Source: the human T2T-CHM13v2.0 reference genome, Homo sapiens
Assembly (NCBI RefSeq): GCF_009914755.1
Contig: NC_060925.1
Strand: one strand, 5' to 3'
DNA length: 64,000 bases
The translations under genes were made by a program, and so were the position numbers. Below are positions 13,014-55,500 of the stretch, one piece after another; position 1 is the stretch's first letter; each line of letters starts with the position of its first letter. The notes beneath the pieces were generated by a model. It ran no database searches and was not told where the DNA came from. It saw nothing but the letters and a program-made list of their open reading frames with translations.

Positions 13014-13085
13014 ATGGGGCCCTGCTCTGGGGCCAGTCCCTCTGCTGGGACTCAGGGCTCCTGGGATTCATCAGTCTCCTCCTCA
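13014..13085 (+). pseudogene. Gene A exon 1: signal peptide with -1 frameshift
   Basis: Kozak GCCATGG at 13011-13017; donor CTCA|GTGAGT at 13085/13086. The 72 nt give phase 0, but the IgV exon needs phase 1. Adding 1 nt restores MGPCSGxQSLCWDSGLLGFISLLL-S, which joins to VCST. Confidence 0.75.
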
Positions 13086-13381
13086 GTGAGTGCAGGGTTC
13101 CTGGGAAGGGAGGGCAGTTGGGTGGGGCTGGGCTAGCTGGGTCTGACCACTGGGTGGGCTGTTCAGGTTCCGCTGTCTTTGGGCCACAAAAAGAGAAAAC
13201 CACTCTGTTATGATTTACAAATGCAGCATATTTGGTTGGAGCCCCAGGATAGAAATAACAAAAAGTCCTTTTGGTGGTGAGGAGGCTGGGAACCCTGAGC
13301 TAGGGCAGTCTTGGTGGTATTGAGGGAACCTTTACCAGGGAGGTGGGGCTGCTTCTGCTGCAGTAGGAGGGTGGCCTGATA

Positions 13382-13451
13382 CTGCCTGGAAAGAGGGATG
13401 GAGACAGACAAACTACCTGCCTGGAAAGAGGGATGAAGACAGACAAACTAC
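13382..13451 (+). repeat. 35-bp tandem duplication in gene A intron 1
   Basis: CTGCCTGGAAAGAGGGATG(G/A)AGACAGACAAACTAC twice. Confidence 0.85.
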
Positions 13452-13729
13452 CTGTCTCCTGGGGAAGAGAGGGTGGGAACAATACATTCCCAGCCAGGAA
13501 CTCAGAGGTGCTCTGACGGTCTTTGCAGCTGTCCTGTGGAGGAGGGGCAGAACTAGAACCCTGCTGTCTGAACTGGAAGAAGCTCCTCTGTCCTGGGCTT
13601 CTCCGTTGAAAAAGGAGAGTGAATATGAACTCCCCTGCCTGGGCTTGGGGCTCACAGGTCATCACAAAGGAGAGGACACTTGGAGGTCTCAGGTTTATCT
13701 TAAAATTGTTTGTGTAATTTGCAATAGTT

Positions 13730-14023
13730 TTCTTTTCTTTTTTTTTTTTTTTTTTTTGAGATGGAGTCTCGCTCTCTCACCAGGCTAGAGTGCAGTGGTG
13801 TGATCTTGGCTCACTGTAACCTCTGCCTCCTGGGTTCAAGAGATTCTCCTGCCTTAGCCTCCTGAGTAACTGGGACTACAGGTGCCCGCCACCACACCCA
13901 GCTACAGTAGAGACGGGGTTTCACCATGTTGGCCAGGATGATCTCGATCTCCTGACCTCGTGATCCGCCTGCCTCAGCCTCCCAAAGTACTGGGATTACA
14001 GATGTGAGCCACTGCGCCTGGCC
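13730..14023 (-). mobile_element. AluS (Sc-like)
   Basis: Poly-T, then GAGATGGAGTCTCGCTCT...GAGCCACTGCGCCTGGCC; AATAGTTTTC direct repeat on both sides. Confidence 0.9.
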
Positions 14024-51911: not shown

Positions 51912-52690
51912 TGAGATGGTACATGTCCTGTGCTTAGAATTAATCTTGGTGGGTGATAGAGCTTGAGAAACATTTTCTTCCCTTTCCACCATTCACTTCC
52001 ACACTGCAGCTGACCCTTAATCTTGTATCTGCAGACCTCATGCCTTCCCAAAGTCAAGGGCCACACCTCTCTATTTTTGGGTAGTGTTTCGGGCTGGGTC
52101 GTAACATCCTAAAGATTCTTCACCCAAGACTCATCTTTCTCAAAAGCCCCAGGACCCTCCATATACTGGGAAATTGACACTATTCCTTGAACATCCCAAT
52201 ACAGGTCCTGCCTGACCATGGGTGTTCCACTAACAGGGATTAATTGGGTCACAGGTCAACAAAGTCTGGCTGATCACTAAAGAGTTCACCTTTCATACTT
52301 TGATGTTTGAATAAGAGTCACTGTTCCTACCTGTGGGGGAACCCATGGGAGCAGCTCATGCTGCCTTGCTGTCTCCGTGGGATGAGGCAGGAAGACCTGG
52401 GTCTCTGGCCTCAGCTCCACATTAAGGAAGGATGTCGAGGACCCTGGGGTGAAGGGTGGTGTGGGAAGATCTTACCAAGTCCCTTCATTGCCCCAGTGTC
52501 TTCATGGTCTAGGCACACTCCGGAGCTCTGGGCTTGTCCAGATCTTGTCATACACAGTGTGGACTGCTGGAGCCAGCGTGGGGCTCTGTGCATGGCAGCT
52601 TCTCTTCTTCATGTCATTCTGCAATTCTGGTGGGATTGAGGAGCTGGCTTGGTCAGCTTCTAAGAATTATGTAGAGGAGCCAGCCAGGCT
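51912..52690 (-). repeat. ~780-bp duplicated block, paralog of 37855-38626
   Basis: Collinear homology by eye. Confidence 0.9.
52502..52618 (-). pseudogene. SLAM-like gene C terminal cytoplasmic exon with ITSM
   Basis: TTGCAG| acceptor, phase 0; reads NDMKKRSCHAQSPTLAPAVHTVYDKIWTSPELRSVPRP*; TVYDKI at 52558-52541. Confidence 0.8.
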
Positions 52691-54978
52691 ACCTGTCTTC
52701 CTGTGCTTGTTGTCCTCAACCACCTAGTTTTGGCTATGAAGCTTGATATCTCCCCATAATAAACTTCAACTGAGACCCCTCTCAAGCTTCGTACATTCTG
52801 TAGAGTCTTTGCACTTGTTCTGTCCTCTGCCCAGGATGCTATTCTTCTCCCACCACACAAACCTCCACATTATTCACGCCCTCATCTCATCCAAGCTTTC
52901 TTTTCTCAGTGAGGCTTTCCCTGACAGACAGCCTTAGTTAAAGTTACACTCCCATCATATTCCTTATTTCCCTTTCCTGCTTTATTTTCTCTTGAGCACT
53001 TGTCATTCTCTAACACTTCGTATTTTTTTTTGTCATTCTCTCTACCCCATCTCTACCTGCATTAAAATGTATATTCTATAGGGAAAGGATTCTTATTCTT
53101 TTGTATTTTTTTGATCTGGACCTCTGTAACCTAGATGAGAACAATTCTAGGAACACAGTAGGAATTCCATAAATATTTCTTGGACAAAGTTGTAAATTGC
53201 TATGACTACTCTCATTGAAAAGTTGCTTTGGAAAACTACAAAGCACAAGCTAAATGTAAGGTACTATTATTTTAATCCATATTATGCAAAAGAGGAAAAT
53301 GAGACCCAGGGAGGTAAAGGAAACTTTCTAAGGTTGAACAAGAAGTCAGGATCAGAGCTGGGTCACACATCCATCTCTCCTGGCACTGTATCTTCATGCC
53401 ACTCCCACCTCTGTGGTCCTCTCCCTGTATCCCAGGAAGTATTCATTTTCTCCAGCAGTCTGGGAGCTCCTCCAGGACAGGGACTGAGGTGGCAGGGGGC
53501 TTCAGAATAGGACTGAGTATCTGGGTCGAACGTCACTTGATTCGTTTCTCTATCTCAGACCCACATTCCGCTCCCTTGTGTTAAAATTGTACCCCTCCCC
53601 CACCTCTGTGTTTCTCTAGTTGGGGGTAGTGGGGCTTGGATTCCAAAGAGTTATGTTCTGAGTTCCCTGAGGCCCAAGACAGATGAGGACATACATCAGA
53701 AGGGCCGAGTTGGGAAGGCACAATGTGACAGGCACTGAGGCAGGTGGGGACAGTGGACAGAGAACTGGATTGGGAGTGAGGAGGCCCCGTCCTGCCTTGT
53801 GCTTGCCATGGTTCTCTGGGTAAGCCCCAGAGTTCCTTCTGGACCCCACTTTCCCCCACCATAAATGACTGCAACCAATTAGGGGATTTCTAAGGTTCTG
53901 ATGCTCTGTGCCTCAACGATCTAGTTACTCCCTCTTTAGAGAAGTCAAAGGATGAAAGAGGAGAGGACCCAGCCACTGGCTCTTCCTGAGAGTCCAGGCT
54001 GAACAAGGAGTCAGGTTCGGCTAAACTCTGCTTGTCTGCCTTGTCTGCTCTTTAGCCTAGCGGTTCTCAAAGTATGAGACCAGGAGGGTCAGCATCACCT
54101 GGGGATTTGGTAGAAATGGGAATTTTCGGGTCTACCCTCAACCCACTGAGTCAGAAACACCGTGAGTGGGTCCAGCAGTCTTTGTCTTACCAGGCCCTCC
54201 AGGTGATTCTGATCATACTTGTCTGGGAGCCACTGCTTCTGGGAAGCCCTTTCAGTGCCCTCTGCTCCTCTGGCTCTTCCAGGTCTCCCCCTAGGCAGAA
54301 TTACTCCATGGGGGACCATAGCACCAACTTCCAATGAAGGGCCAGCGGCCATATGAGATGCTCTCCCAGGGGCATTTTATCAGTGGGGCCAAAGCCTTTA
54401 TACCTGCAGGGGCATTCATGGTAGGCTCTGGAGTAGGGAAGATGGGAGGGACTGGAAAGGGGAGGGAGAAAGTTGGCCTTTTCTGATGCCCATGGATTCT
54501 AGTATCTGCCCTGCCTCCAGGACCTGCCAGGCCCTCTACTTTTACTTCCTTTGGGTCCTGCACAGACAGTTCAGTCCTACCAGACACCTGATCATTTACA
54601 CTCACCTCTCCTGTGGCCTGAGTTTCTTCCTGTGGATGGTGAGCCTCTCCAGGGTTCTTGGCCATATTCCCCACTGCCAAGAGGTGGGCCCTTTGGTGAG
54701 TCTTTCACCTCAGGGAGCCTCAGTACCCCATCCTCTCCTCTGCTATTGCTCCTCACTGGGTGTCAGAAAGGCACTGATGAGATTACAAATGTATTGTACG
54801 TGCAAGTCACTTATCTTGCAGCTCTTAACATGCTTTGGCTACCTAGGTGTGCAACCATATTGTCCAAGGAAAGGATTGGACCCAGAGCCCGACTGTGGGG
54901 CAAAGTATCCTGGGCCTCCAAGGACTCCTGGCCTCTGAACATGTGCCAGTTGCCCCGATTTCATTTTGTTATGCTCAC

Positions 54979-55109
54979 CCTAGGGAGCCTCAGGAGGCTG
55001 ATCTCCACATAGGAAGGGTGGTGGCTGTCAATCTCACTAGTCTGCAGGTTAGCAATGTCCCGTGTGGGAAGGGCCTGGGGAGCAGCCGCTGAGCATGAGC
55101 ATGGCACCA
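54979..55109 (-). pseudogene. SLAM-like gene C penultimate cytoplasmic exon with YxxI motif
   Basis: CTCTCCTGCCAG| acceptor, AGG|GTGAGC donor, 131 nt, phase 1-0, open. Reads VPCSCSAAAPQALPTRDIANLQTSEIDSHHPSYVEISLLRLPR and splices in frame to the ITSM exon at 52618. Confidence 0.7.
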
Positions 55110-55441
55110 CTGGCAGGAGAGTGGATCCACCTGCATGCAGCAGATGCTCACCTAGGGCATGTGGAAGTGAGGTGACACCTTATCAGGCCCATGTAAGGGC
55201 ACCATAGCTTTCTGCTCAGTCCCTAACACCTGCCACCCTTTACTTCTGGTCATTCACACACCTCCTACTCTCAGCATTGCTCCCCAGCCTTCTGCCAGGG
55301 CTGATTCACAGGAGAGGTCAGTGAGCCTCTATCTGCCCACTGTCATCCTCAGTCTGCTCACTTTTTCTGGGGTCTCCTCCCTGCACTTCTTCCCCAGGAC
55401 CCCAAGCTGAGCACTCCCCTCAGGATCTCTCTAGCGCCCAC

Positions 55442-55500
55442 CTCTCTGTCTTCATCTTCCTTTTTCACATCCATGCTCCAGCCCCGAGGCTCATCATCTC
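55442..55500 (-). pseudogene. SLAM-like gene C transmembrane exon remnant (3' part)
   Basis: MMSLGAGAWM*KRKMKTE|GTGGGC resembles gene A LGAGLYLWKKR...ETG; TGA at 55467-55465; the 5' hydrophobic half is not recognisable. Confidence 0.55.

What the first reader, a model, noticed from the sequence alone, without database searches (positions are those of the whole stretch)
13014..55500. Decayed cluster of divergent SLAM/CD2-family immune receptor genes, including ITSM-bearing members
Seen: nine exon-like segments, most with recognisable splice sites, that reconstruct type I receptors on both strands. They comprise a leader, a V domain without the B-F disulfide, 4-Cys-type C2 domains, TM segments with a basic stop-transfer, a YxxI exon, and TxYxxI terminal exons. 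Established: that V/C2 cysteine pattern defines the CD2/SLAM family, and TxYxxI/V is the ITSM that recruits SAP (SH2D1A), EAT-2 (SH2D1B) and SHP-1/2. Inference: the reconstructed proteins do not match my recollection of SLAMF1-9, CD2 or CD58; note the extended TANTSGAHGPAVKDSG linker and the ELE-R-T--PAPN insert in C2. They may therefore be a separate SLAM-like subfamily, lost in this lineage but intact in other mammals. The exons are largely invisible in the ORF track.
Basis: partly seen in the sequence, partly recalled or inferred. Interest (0 to 1): 0.9.

Follow-up and report, generated by a model that had tools for sequence, protein, structure and literature searches.

The report
Dead SLAM-like immune receptor gene relics
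This stretch of human chromosome 1 holds the broken remains of three genes from an unnamed branch of the SLAM immune-receptor family that looks intact in many other mammals, and a sister copy just outside the window still has a complete reading frame.

Summary
I found all nine exon-like segments: seven with strong statistics, two transmembrane (TM) relics only weakly.

- **Plus strand (13014-22060):** leader, V, C2 and TM exons of one dead gene. They coincide with the four exons of lncRNA LOC107985211. Lesions: 1-bp deletion, CGA>TGA, CAG>TAG, +5-bp frameshift, GA-repeat insertion, no detectable cytoplasmic exons.
- **Minus strand:** two partial genes of a second subgroup. B1 has a C2 exon, a TM relic and a TVYEKI terminal exon. 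B2 has a TM relic, a YVEI exon and a TVYDKI terminal exon.

None is a recent copy of a known human SLAMF gene. Both subgroups (A and B) appear as full-length, ITSM-bearing predicted proteins in many placental mammals. Reptiles and birds have relatives. On a tree, A+B form a clade (98.7/100) apart from the six canonical human SLAM genes tested.

In human the relics are scattered over chr1:156.31-156.76 Mb, from ETV3 into the FCRL cluster. "Lost in this lineage" is only partly right. A paralogue about 100 kb downstream, inside lncRNA LOC101928202, keeps six open exons: 378 codons, no stop.

I found no paper describing the subfamily.

The parts
12769..13085 (+). Gene A exon 1 (leader). ATG at 13014. 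A 1-bp deletion after 13028 shifts the frame before the hydrophobic core. Donor GT at 13086.
   Evidence: E 1.1e-4; alignment with four paralogous leader exons. Same borders as lncRNA LOC107985211 exon 1 in the hub table.
17724..18116 (+). Gene A V-domain exon, subgroup A. In-frame TGA at 17924-17926, where the paralogue has CGA. No indels.
   Evidence: 65-70% identity to New World monkey proteins, E 1e-52; 351 of 413 nt identical to copy 2. Equals lncRNA exon 2.
19984..20277 (+). Gene A C2-domain exon with four Cys. TAG at 20229-20231, where the paralogue has CAG.
   Evidence: E 2.7e-44; 280 of 317 columns identical. Equals lncRNA exon 3.
21825..22059 (+). Gene A TM exon. A +5-bp insertion near 21852-21857 breaks the frame. 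A 48-bp GAA/GAG repeat lies within 21929-22008. Basic anchor after the TM segment. Homology to the paralogue ends near 22086, and no cytoplasmic exons are detectable downstream.
   Evidence: (E 2.7e-10). The lncRNA's last exon starts at 21825.
39595..39891 (-). Gene B1 C2 exon, subgroup B. TGG>TGA at 39836-39838, first Cys changed to Tyr, TGG>TAG at 39599-39601.
   Evidence: 55.6% identity to the plus C2, E 2.7e-23; E 3.9e-26; 54-60% identity to subgroup-B proteins, E to 1e-35; tree (inside B, 100/100).
39345..39422 (-). Gene B1 probable decayed TM-exon relic.
   Evidence: 54% identity over 26 aa to pangolin P0169, E 7e-5. Position fits, between the C2 and terminal exons.
38438..38554 (-). Gene B1 terminal exon with ITSM TVYEKI (38477-38494), acceptor AG and a stop codon.
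   Evidence: E 2.3e-5; 73% identity to P0169, E 2.3e-7.
55441..55560 (-). Gene B2 possible TM relic with a basic anchor and an in-frame TGA. Weak evidence.
   Evidence: E 4.8 only. Order and spacing fit: 310 bp upstream of the next exon.
54979..55130 (-). Gene B2 cytoplasmic exon with YVEI (55000-55011). AG acceptor, GT donor, open frame.
   Evidence: 48-50% identity, E 1.9e-7 and 2.0e-6; (E 0.0046 genome-wide).
52502..52618 (-). Gene B2 terminal exon with ITSM TVYDKI (52541-52558).
   Evidence: E 1.1e-4; 71% identity, E 9.7e-8. Lies in the duplicated block 51901-52690, which matches 37844-38626 at 86% nt identity.

Best explanation
The window holds three unprocessed pseudogenes from an unnamed subfamily of the SLAM/CD2 immune-receptor family. 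This subfamily forms its own gene cluster between ETV3 and the FCRL genes on 1q23.1.

- **Gene A (plus strand):** keeps its leader, V, C2 and TM exons and still uses the ancestral splice sites. It is transcribed as lncRNA LOC107985211. Six lesions bar a receptor product.
- **Genes B1 and B2 (minus strand):** fragments of a second subgroup.

**Inferred, not shown.** The ancestral proteins were type I receptors with a SLAM-like V-C2 ectodomain. Their tail carried a Yxx(L/I) motif and a C-terminal ITSM, which after tyrosine phosphorylation would recruit SAP, EAT-2 or SHP phosphatases as in SLAMF1-7. The window copies themselves have no receptor function. Any present role would be as RNA.
For: **The relics are real and belong to one family**
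- Profile and tblastn statistics.
- The four plus-strand exon borders equal the lncRNA's exons (hub table).
- Lesions read against an open paralogue.

**Relatives exist in other animals**
- The plus C2 exon finds 127 proteins at E<=0.01 among 172 candidates. Every organism named among the 120 listed is a mammal. Identity is 88% in orangutan and siamang, 74-80% in New World monkeys and 58-72% in other orders.
- A subgroup-B protein finds 74 proteins at E<=1e-10, covering Afrotheria, Xenarthra, Laurasiatheria and Euarchontoglires.
- Reptile and bird relatives.
- Subgroups A and B share contigs.

**SLAM/CD2 character**
- 22-protein alignment: no invariant Cys in the V domain and four invariant Cys in C2.
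- ITSM in 32 of 69 subgroup-A and 23 of 30 subgroup-B proteins that have a TM segment.
- The profile hits SLAMF6 structure 2if7 at E 4.2e-9 across V+C2, CD48 at 1.2e-6, CD2 at 1.6e-6 and CD84 at 1.9e-4.
- Pfam Receptor_2B4 scores above its cut-off in 2 of 3 subgroup-B proteins.
- The nearest Atlas clusters are all SLAM-named.

**Distinct from canonical SLAMF genes**
- A rhino family protein finds 15 human exon matches at E<=1e-3, all within chr1:156.32-156.76 Mb. Its only hit near a canonical SLAMF gene scores E 7.4.
- CD84 V and C2 exons find other exons near the SLAM locus (by coordinates SLAMF9, LY9, SLAMF6, SLAMF7, SLAMF1, CD244) at E 1e-14 to 0.13, but no relic exon at E<=1.
- IQ-TREE: B plus the minus relic 100/100; A plus four human relics 90.1/89; A+B 98.7/100; the six canonical rows on one side of a branch at 87.5/94. 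The quick PMSF tree agrees.
Against: - The separate window exons get only sub-threshold generic Ig hits in Pfam. PDB phmmer gives them no SLAM hit better than E 0.32.
- In the PDB profile search, titin, FCRL5 and CEACAM score as well as SLAMF6, so the sequence evidence for family membership is moderate.
- The tree lacks SLAMF7, LY9, CD244, CD2 and CD58. SLAMF1 and CD48 are C2-only rows. The tree is unrooted, canonical branches are long, and the careful PMSF search did not finish.
- The intact relatives are automatic gene predictions. I saw no protein-level or functional data.
- SLAMF8 shares the long C2 loop and is the best canonical hit of a lizard relative. The subfamily could therefore be a sister of SLAMF8 rather than a deep separate lineage.
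Confidence: 0.88

Rival explanations
1. The exons are a recent duplicate of a known human SLAMF gene, as the symbol SLAMF6P1 would suggest. That symbol is, as I recall, GENCODE's name for a pseudogene in this interval.
For: The symbol SLAMF6P1 exists in two gene lists. Its map position is recalled, not checked. SLAMF6 is the best solved-structure match of the family profile.
Against: - The human SLAMF6 V and C2 exons score only 62.6 and 12.7 bits against a family profile. The window's own exons score 76-149 bits against a subgroup-A profile.
- No canonical exon is found at E<7 by a family protein.
- CD84 exons do not find the relics.
- The tree separates them.
Confidence: 0.03
2. The subfamily is the mammalian counterpart of SLAMF8 or SLAMF9, that is, lineage-specific duplicates of those genes rather than a separate branch.
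For: - Many relatives are auto-named SLAMF8-like or SLAMF9-like.
- The SLAMF8 C2 exon is the best intact human hit of a lizard relative (E 1.5e-4).
- SLAMF8 shares the long C2 loop.
- The SLAMF9 V exon is the only hit of the rhino protein near a canonical SLAMF gene (E 7.4).
Against: - The same lizard protein hits the relic C2 exons far better (1.5e-10 to 5.8e-7).
- SLAMF8 and SLAMF9 fall with the canonical rows in both trees.
- As I recall, human SLAMF8 and SLAMF9 lack ITSMs, whereas this family has them.
Confidence: 0.12
3. Gene A is still a working protein-coding gene, for example through stop read-through or alternative exons.
For: It is transcribed and spliced at the ancestral sites (hub annotation of LOC107985211).
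Against: It carries independent lesions of different kinds in all four exons: a 1-bp deletion, a TGA, a TAG and a +5-bp insertion. The cytoplasmic exons are also undetectable downstream. RefSeq calls it non-coding.
Confidence: 0.02

Closest known systems
SLAMF6 (NTB-A) and SLAMF5 (CD84), ITSM-bearing SLAM receptors
   Same: Leader, V, C2, TM and short cytoplasmic exons. A V domain without the canonical disulfide and a four-Cys C2 domain. A TxYxx(V/I) motif near the C-terminus. Best solved-structure match over V+C2 (2if7, E 4.2e-9).
   Different: Very low sequence similarity. The family has a conserved N-terminal extension of about 20 residues and a C2 loop 6-14 residues longer. It has a different map position, about 3.3 Mb from the SLAM locus. 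It carries one ITSM plus a Yxx(L/I) motif.
SLAMF8 and SLAMF9
   Same: They lie outside the main SLAM cluster on 1q23. SLAMF8 has a similarly long C2 loop. They are the best canonical hits of family members, and automatic names often read "8-like" or "9-like".
   Different: They sit on the canonical side of both trees. Similarity is marginal (E 1.5e-4 and 7.4). As I recall, their tails are short and lack ITSMs.
CD244 (2B4) and CD48
   Same: Subgroup-B V domains match Pfam Receptor_2B4 (26.3 and 29.8 bits against a cut-off of 21). Many subgroup-B proteins are auto-named CD48-like.
   Different: The CD48 C2 exon groups with the canonical rows. CD244 was not in the tree. Subgroup B has a TM segment and an ITSM tail, unlike CD48, which as I recall is GPI-anchored.
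Reptile and bird "SLAM family member 5/8/9-like" genes
   Same: They are the closest non-mammalian relatives, scoring 130-160 bits against the family profile. They share the long C2 loop, a YAEI-type motif and a terminal TxYxx(V/I) motif.
   Different: They form a separate group on the tree. Orthology to subgroup A, subgroup B or SLAMF8 is unresolved.

Membership tests
SLAM/CD2 family of the Ig superfamily | An N-terminal V-set domain lacking the B-F disulfide, followed by a C2-set domain with two disulfides (four Cys) | tested here: met
   In alignment A1, no V-domain Cys is invariant, and four Cys (C171, C177, C229, C248) are invariant in C2. The window's plus V and C2 exons show the same pattern. 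The disulfides themselves are inferred from the Cys pattern.
SLAM/CD2 family of the Ig superfamily | Sequence or profile similarity to family members of known structure, or to family-specific models | tested here: met
   Profile against PDB: SLAMF6 4.2e-9 across V+C2, CD48 1.2e-6, CD2 1.6e-6, CD84 1.9e-4, but generic Ig proteins score alike. Pfam Receptor_2B4 is above its cut-off in 2 of 3 subgroup-B proteins and in none of the 3 subgroup-A proteins. Atlas neighbours are all SLAM-named (a lead only).
SLAM/CD2 family of the Ig superfamily | A cytoplasmic ITSM, TxYxx(V/I) | tested here: met
   TVYEKI and TVYDKI in the window's terminal exons. ITSM present in 32 of 69 subgroup-A and 23 of 30 subgroup-B relatives that have a TM segment.
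SLAM/CD2 family of the Ig superfamily | Binding of SAP or EAT-2 to the phosphorylated ITSM | not testable with these tools
   Inferred from the motif only.
SLAM/CD2 family of the Ig superfamily | An ectodomain fold like NTB-A, CD84 or CD2 | not tested
Copy of a canonical human SLAMF gene (SLAMF1-9) | Closest relative is one named human SLAMF gene, with clear similarity | tested here: not met
   Six of the canonical genes were in the tree. By their coordinates, the extra hits of CD84's exons are SLAMF7, LY9 and CD244, so these were covered only by reciprocal search.
Unprocessed pseudogene | Introns kept, ancestral splice sites present, disabling mutations relative to intact relatives | tested here: met

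The most novel reading that the evidence does not exclude
Humans may still carry a working tenth SLAM-type receptor. The paralogue at chr1:156,424,140-156,447,685 (minus strand; window coordinates 122,140-145,685) lies inside lncRNA LOC101928202.

- It has six exons with AG/GT sites, except for one consensus GC donor.
- Its frame is open for 378 codons.
- It has a signal-like leader, V and C2 domains, a TM segment, a YEDL motif and a TPIYSEV ITSM.
- A 1,096-bp public contig encodes its spliced leader, V and C2 exons at 100% identity.

If it is translated, the SLAM family would have an unrecognised human member. The window's relics would then be its dead siblings.
Probability: 0.3. Interest if true: 0.85.

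Novelty: new member of a known kind. Interest (0 to 1): 0.62.

Why it matters
Reviews count nine SLAM receptors; one review abstract I saw in a search listing says so (PMC4718992). That count rests on human and mouse.

This cluster points to a further, old branch of the family. It appears in all four placental superorders and has relatives in reptiles and birds. In human it is largely decayed, and no mouse or rat name appeared in my lists. That would explain why it has no name and no studied function.

It gives a coding origin to lncRNAs in the ETV3-FCRL gap. It also raises a directly testable question: does the one open human copy make a protein? The same branch could matter for the immunology of cats, dogs, horses, cattle and pigs.

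Tried and rejected
**Searches that gave little**
- Pfam on the single window exons: only sub-threshold Ig hits.
- PDB phmmer with three exon pieces: no SLAM hit. The armadillo-repeat hits were repeat noise.
- Nucleotide self-comparison of the plus and minus genes: only Alu matches.
- Subgroup-A-type cytoplasmic exons downstream of gene A: not found, and homology to copy 2 ends near 22086.
- A V exon for B1 or B2 in the window: none found.
- A first \"leader\" candidate for copy 2 at 156,432,2xx: rejected as chance. The real leader exon was then found by DNA search.
- Rfam on the window: nothing.

- The notes of earlier readers were closed.
- The own genome cannot be searched with an alignment.
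SLAMF7, LY9, CD244, CD2, CD58 and the V exons of SLAMF1 and CD48 are therefore not in the tree.
- The careful PMSF tree did not finish, and one IQ-TREE run timed out. The resumed run finished.

**Literature: eight searches, none found a description of the subfamily**
-.
- \"SLAMF10\" was a formula artefact.
- Cattle LOC784007 and sheep LOC105614265 appear in expression tables under SLAM-like names. I could not tie either to this family.
- LOC107985211 is counted twice in a blood-transcriptome paper, but I could not see the passage.

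
Full report
**Where the window lies.** It is human chr1:156,302,001-156,366,000 (T2T-CHM13) in the gap after ETV3 (hub table). The whole genome could be searched as G000.

**Checking the observation**

The stop-to-stop ORF list already shows the V, C2 and TM pieces on the plus strand and a C2 piece on the minus strand. 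Reading the DNA gave these features:
- an ATG at 13014 with a donor at 13086;
- AG/GT-flanked exons at 17724-18116 and 19984-20277;
- an acceptor at 21825.

These are exactly the borders of the four exons of lncRNA LOC107985211 in the hub's table.

The two C2 exons are 55.6% identical over 81 residues (E 2.7e-23). They share no nucleotide-level match; only Alu elements align.

A profile of 20 intact relatives was run against 3,568 ORF pieces of the window. Six pieces scored E<=1.1e-4:

| Piece | E-value |
|---|---|
| plus C2 | 2.7e-44 |
| V, second half | 2.3e-28 |
| V, first half | 3.5e-22 |
| minus C2 | 3.9e-26 |
| TM | 2.7e-10 |
| leader | 1.1e-4 |

Three further pieces scored only E 0.33-6.2.

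The minus-strand cytoplasmic exons were found with subgroup-B proteins:
- terminal exons at 38554-38438 and 52618-52502: 73% and 71% identity to a pangolin protein, E 2.3e-7 and 9.7e-8;
- a YVEI exon at 55130-54979: 48-50% identity, E 1.9e-7 and 2.0e-6;
- a TM relic at 39422-39345: E 7e-5;
- a weak TM relic near 55497-55444: E 4.8.

Splice sites for these exons were read.

**What the segments are**

On their own the window exons look like generic Ig pieces:
- Pfam gives only sub-threshold hits.
- PDB phmmer gives no SLAM hit better than E 0.32.

The large protein database settled the question.
- **Subgroup A.** The plus C2 exon finds 127 proteins at E<=0.01 among 172 candidates, and 120 are listed. 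Every organism named among the listed proteins is a mammal. The names are an inconsistent mix: "SLAM family member 5-, 6-, 8- or 9-like", "CD48-like", "Ly-9-like", "uncharacterized". Identity is 88% in orangutan and siamang, 83% in chimpanzee, 74-80% in New World monkeys and 58-72% in rhinoceros, horses, cats, seals, bears, whales, camels, cattle, lemurs, mole-rats, a mole, a tree shrew and a sloth.
- **Build of full-length subgroup-A members.** They have a leader, a conserved N-terminal extension, a V domain, a C2 domain, a TM segment, an exon with YAEL and a terminal exon with TVYSEV.
- **Subgroup B.** This second subgroup came from the representative search. It ends with a YAEI exon and a TVYEKI exon, and it matches the window's minus-strand pieces. 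A subgroup-B query finds 74 proteins at E<=1e-10: carnivores, camels, whales, horses, deer, pig, hippopotamus, rhinoceros, pangolin, bats, hedgehog, moles, armadillo, elephants, manatee, rabbit, pika, squirrels, marmots, loris and lemurs.
- **Gaps in the lists.** No anthropoid primate appears in the subgroup-B list. No mouse or rat name appears in either list. That is suggestive only.
- **Clustering.** A and B members share contigs. Black rhinoceros locus tags 006403/006404 (B-type) lie near 006416 (A-type), and stoat LOC numbers are six apart.
- **Non-mammalian relatives.** They occur in lizards, turtles, crocodilians and birds.

**Is it SLAM/CD2, and is it separate?**

Evidence for SLAM/CD2 membership:
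- In a 22-protein alignment the V domain has no invariant Cys, and C2 has four invariant Cys.
- ITSMs occur in 32 of 69 subgroup-A and 23 of 30 subgroup-B proteins that pass a crude TM test.
- The family profile hits SLAMF6 structure 2if7 at E 4.2e-9 over V+C2, CD48 at 1.2e-6, CD2 at 1.6e-6 and CD84 at 1.9e-4. Titin, FCRL5 and CEACAM score as well through generic Ig motifs.
- Pfam Receptor_2B4 passes its cut-off in 2 of 3 subgroup-B proteins and in none of 3 subgroup-A proteins.
- Atlas neighbours are all SLAM-named (a lead only).

Evidence against being a copy of a known gene:
- A rhino family protein finds 15 human exon matches at E<=1e-3, all in chr1:156.32-156.76 Mb. At E<=10 its only hit near a canonical SLAMF gene scores 7.4. 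By my recalled coordinates and the sequence seen, that hit is the SLAMF9 V exon.
- Human SLAMF6, CD84, SLAMF9, SLAMF8, SLAMF1 and CD48 exons score 12.7-62.6 bits against a broad family profile.
- CD84's V and C2 exons find other exons near the SLAM locus (by coordinates SLAMF9, LY9, SLAMF6, SLAMF7, SLAMF1 and CD244) at E 1e-14 to 0.13, but no relic exon at E<=1.

Tree support (72 rows, 202 columns; IQ-TREE LG+F+G4, SH-aLRT/UFBoot):

| Grouping | Support |
|---|---|
| B + the minus relic | 100/100 |
| A + four human relics | 90.1/89 |
| A + B | 98.7/100 |
| window gene A inside a primate subclade | 99.7/100 |
| six canonical rows on one side of a branch | 87.5/94 |

The quick PMSF tree agrees. 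The careful PMSF run did not finish.

Two canonical rows are C2-only. The tree is unrooted.

SLAMF8 may be the nearest canonical gene. It shares the long C2 loop. It is also the best intact human hit of a lizard relative (E 1.5e-4), although the relic C2 exons score 1.5e-10 to 5.8e-7 with that same query.

**How the window copies are broken**

Gene A was compared with an open paralogue:
- exon 1 has a 1-bp deletion after the fifth codon;
- V has CGA>TGA, with 351 of 413 nt identical and no indel;
- C2 has CAG>TAG;
- TM has a +5-bp insertion and a 48-bp GAA/GAG repeat;
- homology stops near 22086, and no cytoplasmic exons follow.

The siamang model P0003, which carries the orthologous V and C2 exons, has Arg and Gln at the two stop positions. 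Both nonsense changes are therefore absent from that gibbon.

The B1 C2 exon has TGG>TGA, Cys>Tyr and TGG>TAG. B1 lacks V and YxxI exons. B2 lacks leader, V and C2 exons within the window.

**Beyond the window**

The relics span 156.31-156.76 Mb:
- five leader exons;
- V relics at five places;
- C2 relics at eight places.

One C2 relic, at 156.761 Mb, lies among FCRL-type exons. An owl-monkey model named FCRL3 fuses an FCRL-type domain end to the orthologous C2 exon.

One copy is not visibly broken. It lies at 156,424,140-156,447,685 (minus strand), inside lncRNA LOC101928202. Its six exons are:

| Exon | Coordinates | Note |
|---|---|---|
| leader | 156,447,685-613 | |
| V | 156,428,841-449 | |
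| C2 | 156,426,888-592 | |
| TM | 156,424,989-855 | GC donor in consensus context |
| cytoplasmic 1 | 156,424,659-568 | YEDL |
| cytoplasmic 2 | 156,424,286-140 | TPIYSEV |

- The exons join into 1,137 nt, or 378 codons, without a stop.
- A 380-residue database protein, P0004, is 96.8% identical over its full length. Its source is unnamed, and it resembles the chimpanzee model.
- A 259-residue protein, P0005, from a 1,096-bp contig, is 100% identical over leader+V+C2 and then reads into the intron.
- Human and chimpanzee differ at about 10 of about 229 V+C2 residues by my reading. That is high, and it fits either fast evolution or relaxed constraint.
- Whether this copy is translated is unknown.

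**Literature**

- Eight searches found no description of the subfamily.
- SLAMF6P1 appears only in gene lists (passage seen). That it maps here is my recollection, not a result.
- LINC02772, a neighbour, is reported as expressed in whole blood (passages seen).
- Subscription journals and supplementary tables were not searched.

**Verdict**

It is wrong on map position and incomplete on "lost in human".

Noticed in passing
outside the window: window coordinates 122,140-145,685 (chr1:156,424,140-156,447,685, minus strand), loci L041, L001, L005, L038: A subgroup-A paralogue inside lncRNA LOC101928202 has six open exons that join to 378 codons with no stop. It carries a YEDL motif and a TPIYSEV ITSM, and has one GC donor. 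A 1,096-bp public contig encodes its spliced first three exons at 100% identity.
   Followed up: partly
chr1:156.31-156.76 Mb (loci L001-L015, L040-L044): The relic cluster is far larger than the window: five leader exons, V relics at five places and C2 relics at eight. One C2 relic at 156.761 Mb lies among FCRL-type exons. A subgroup-B V exon at 156,618,472-894 (plus strand) is still open over 141 residues.
   Followed up: partly
window 2966-9977 and 25495-35148: A direct segmental duplication of 78-91% identity flanks gene A on both sides. It fits tandem growth of the cluster by units of about 22 kb.
   Followed up: no
window 29500-30500: An unannotated CpG-island-like stretch (G+C 0.71, CpG observed/expected 0.56-0.71). 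It lies in a segment of about 2.3 kb that is absent from the paralogous block at 6383-6628.
   Followed up: no
window 46200-49950 minus strand, and 57560-58900: L1-type ORF2-like reading frames lie between relics B1 and B2. A second, older L1 piece matches them at 68% identity.
   Followed up: no
chr1:161,789,583-161,790,583 (plus); chr1:159,913,025-159,914,254 (minus); chrX:153,449,758-907 (minus): CD84 V and C2 exons also hit other SLAM-like exon pairs or pieces outside the named genes, some with stops. These are probably further SLAM pseudogenes.
   Followed up: no
window 21929-22008: A GAA/GAG microsatellite sits inside the former TM exon and encodes the run of Glu seen in the ORF.
   Followed up: yes
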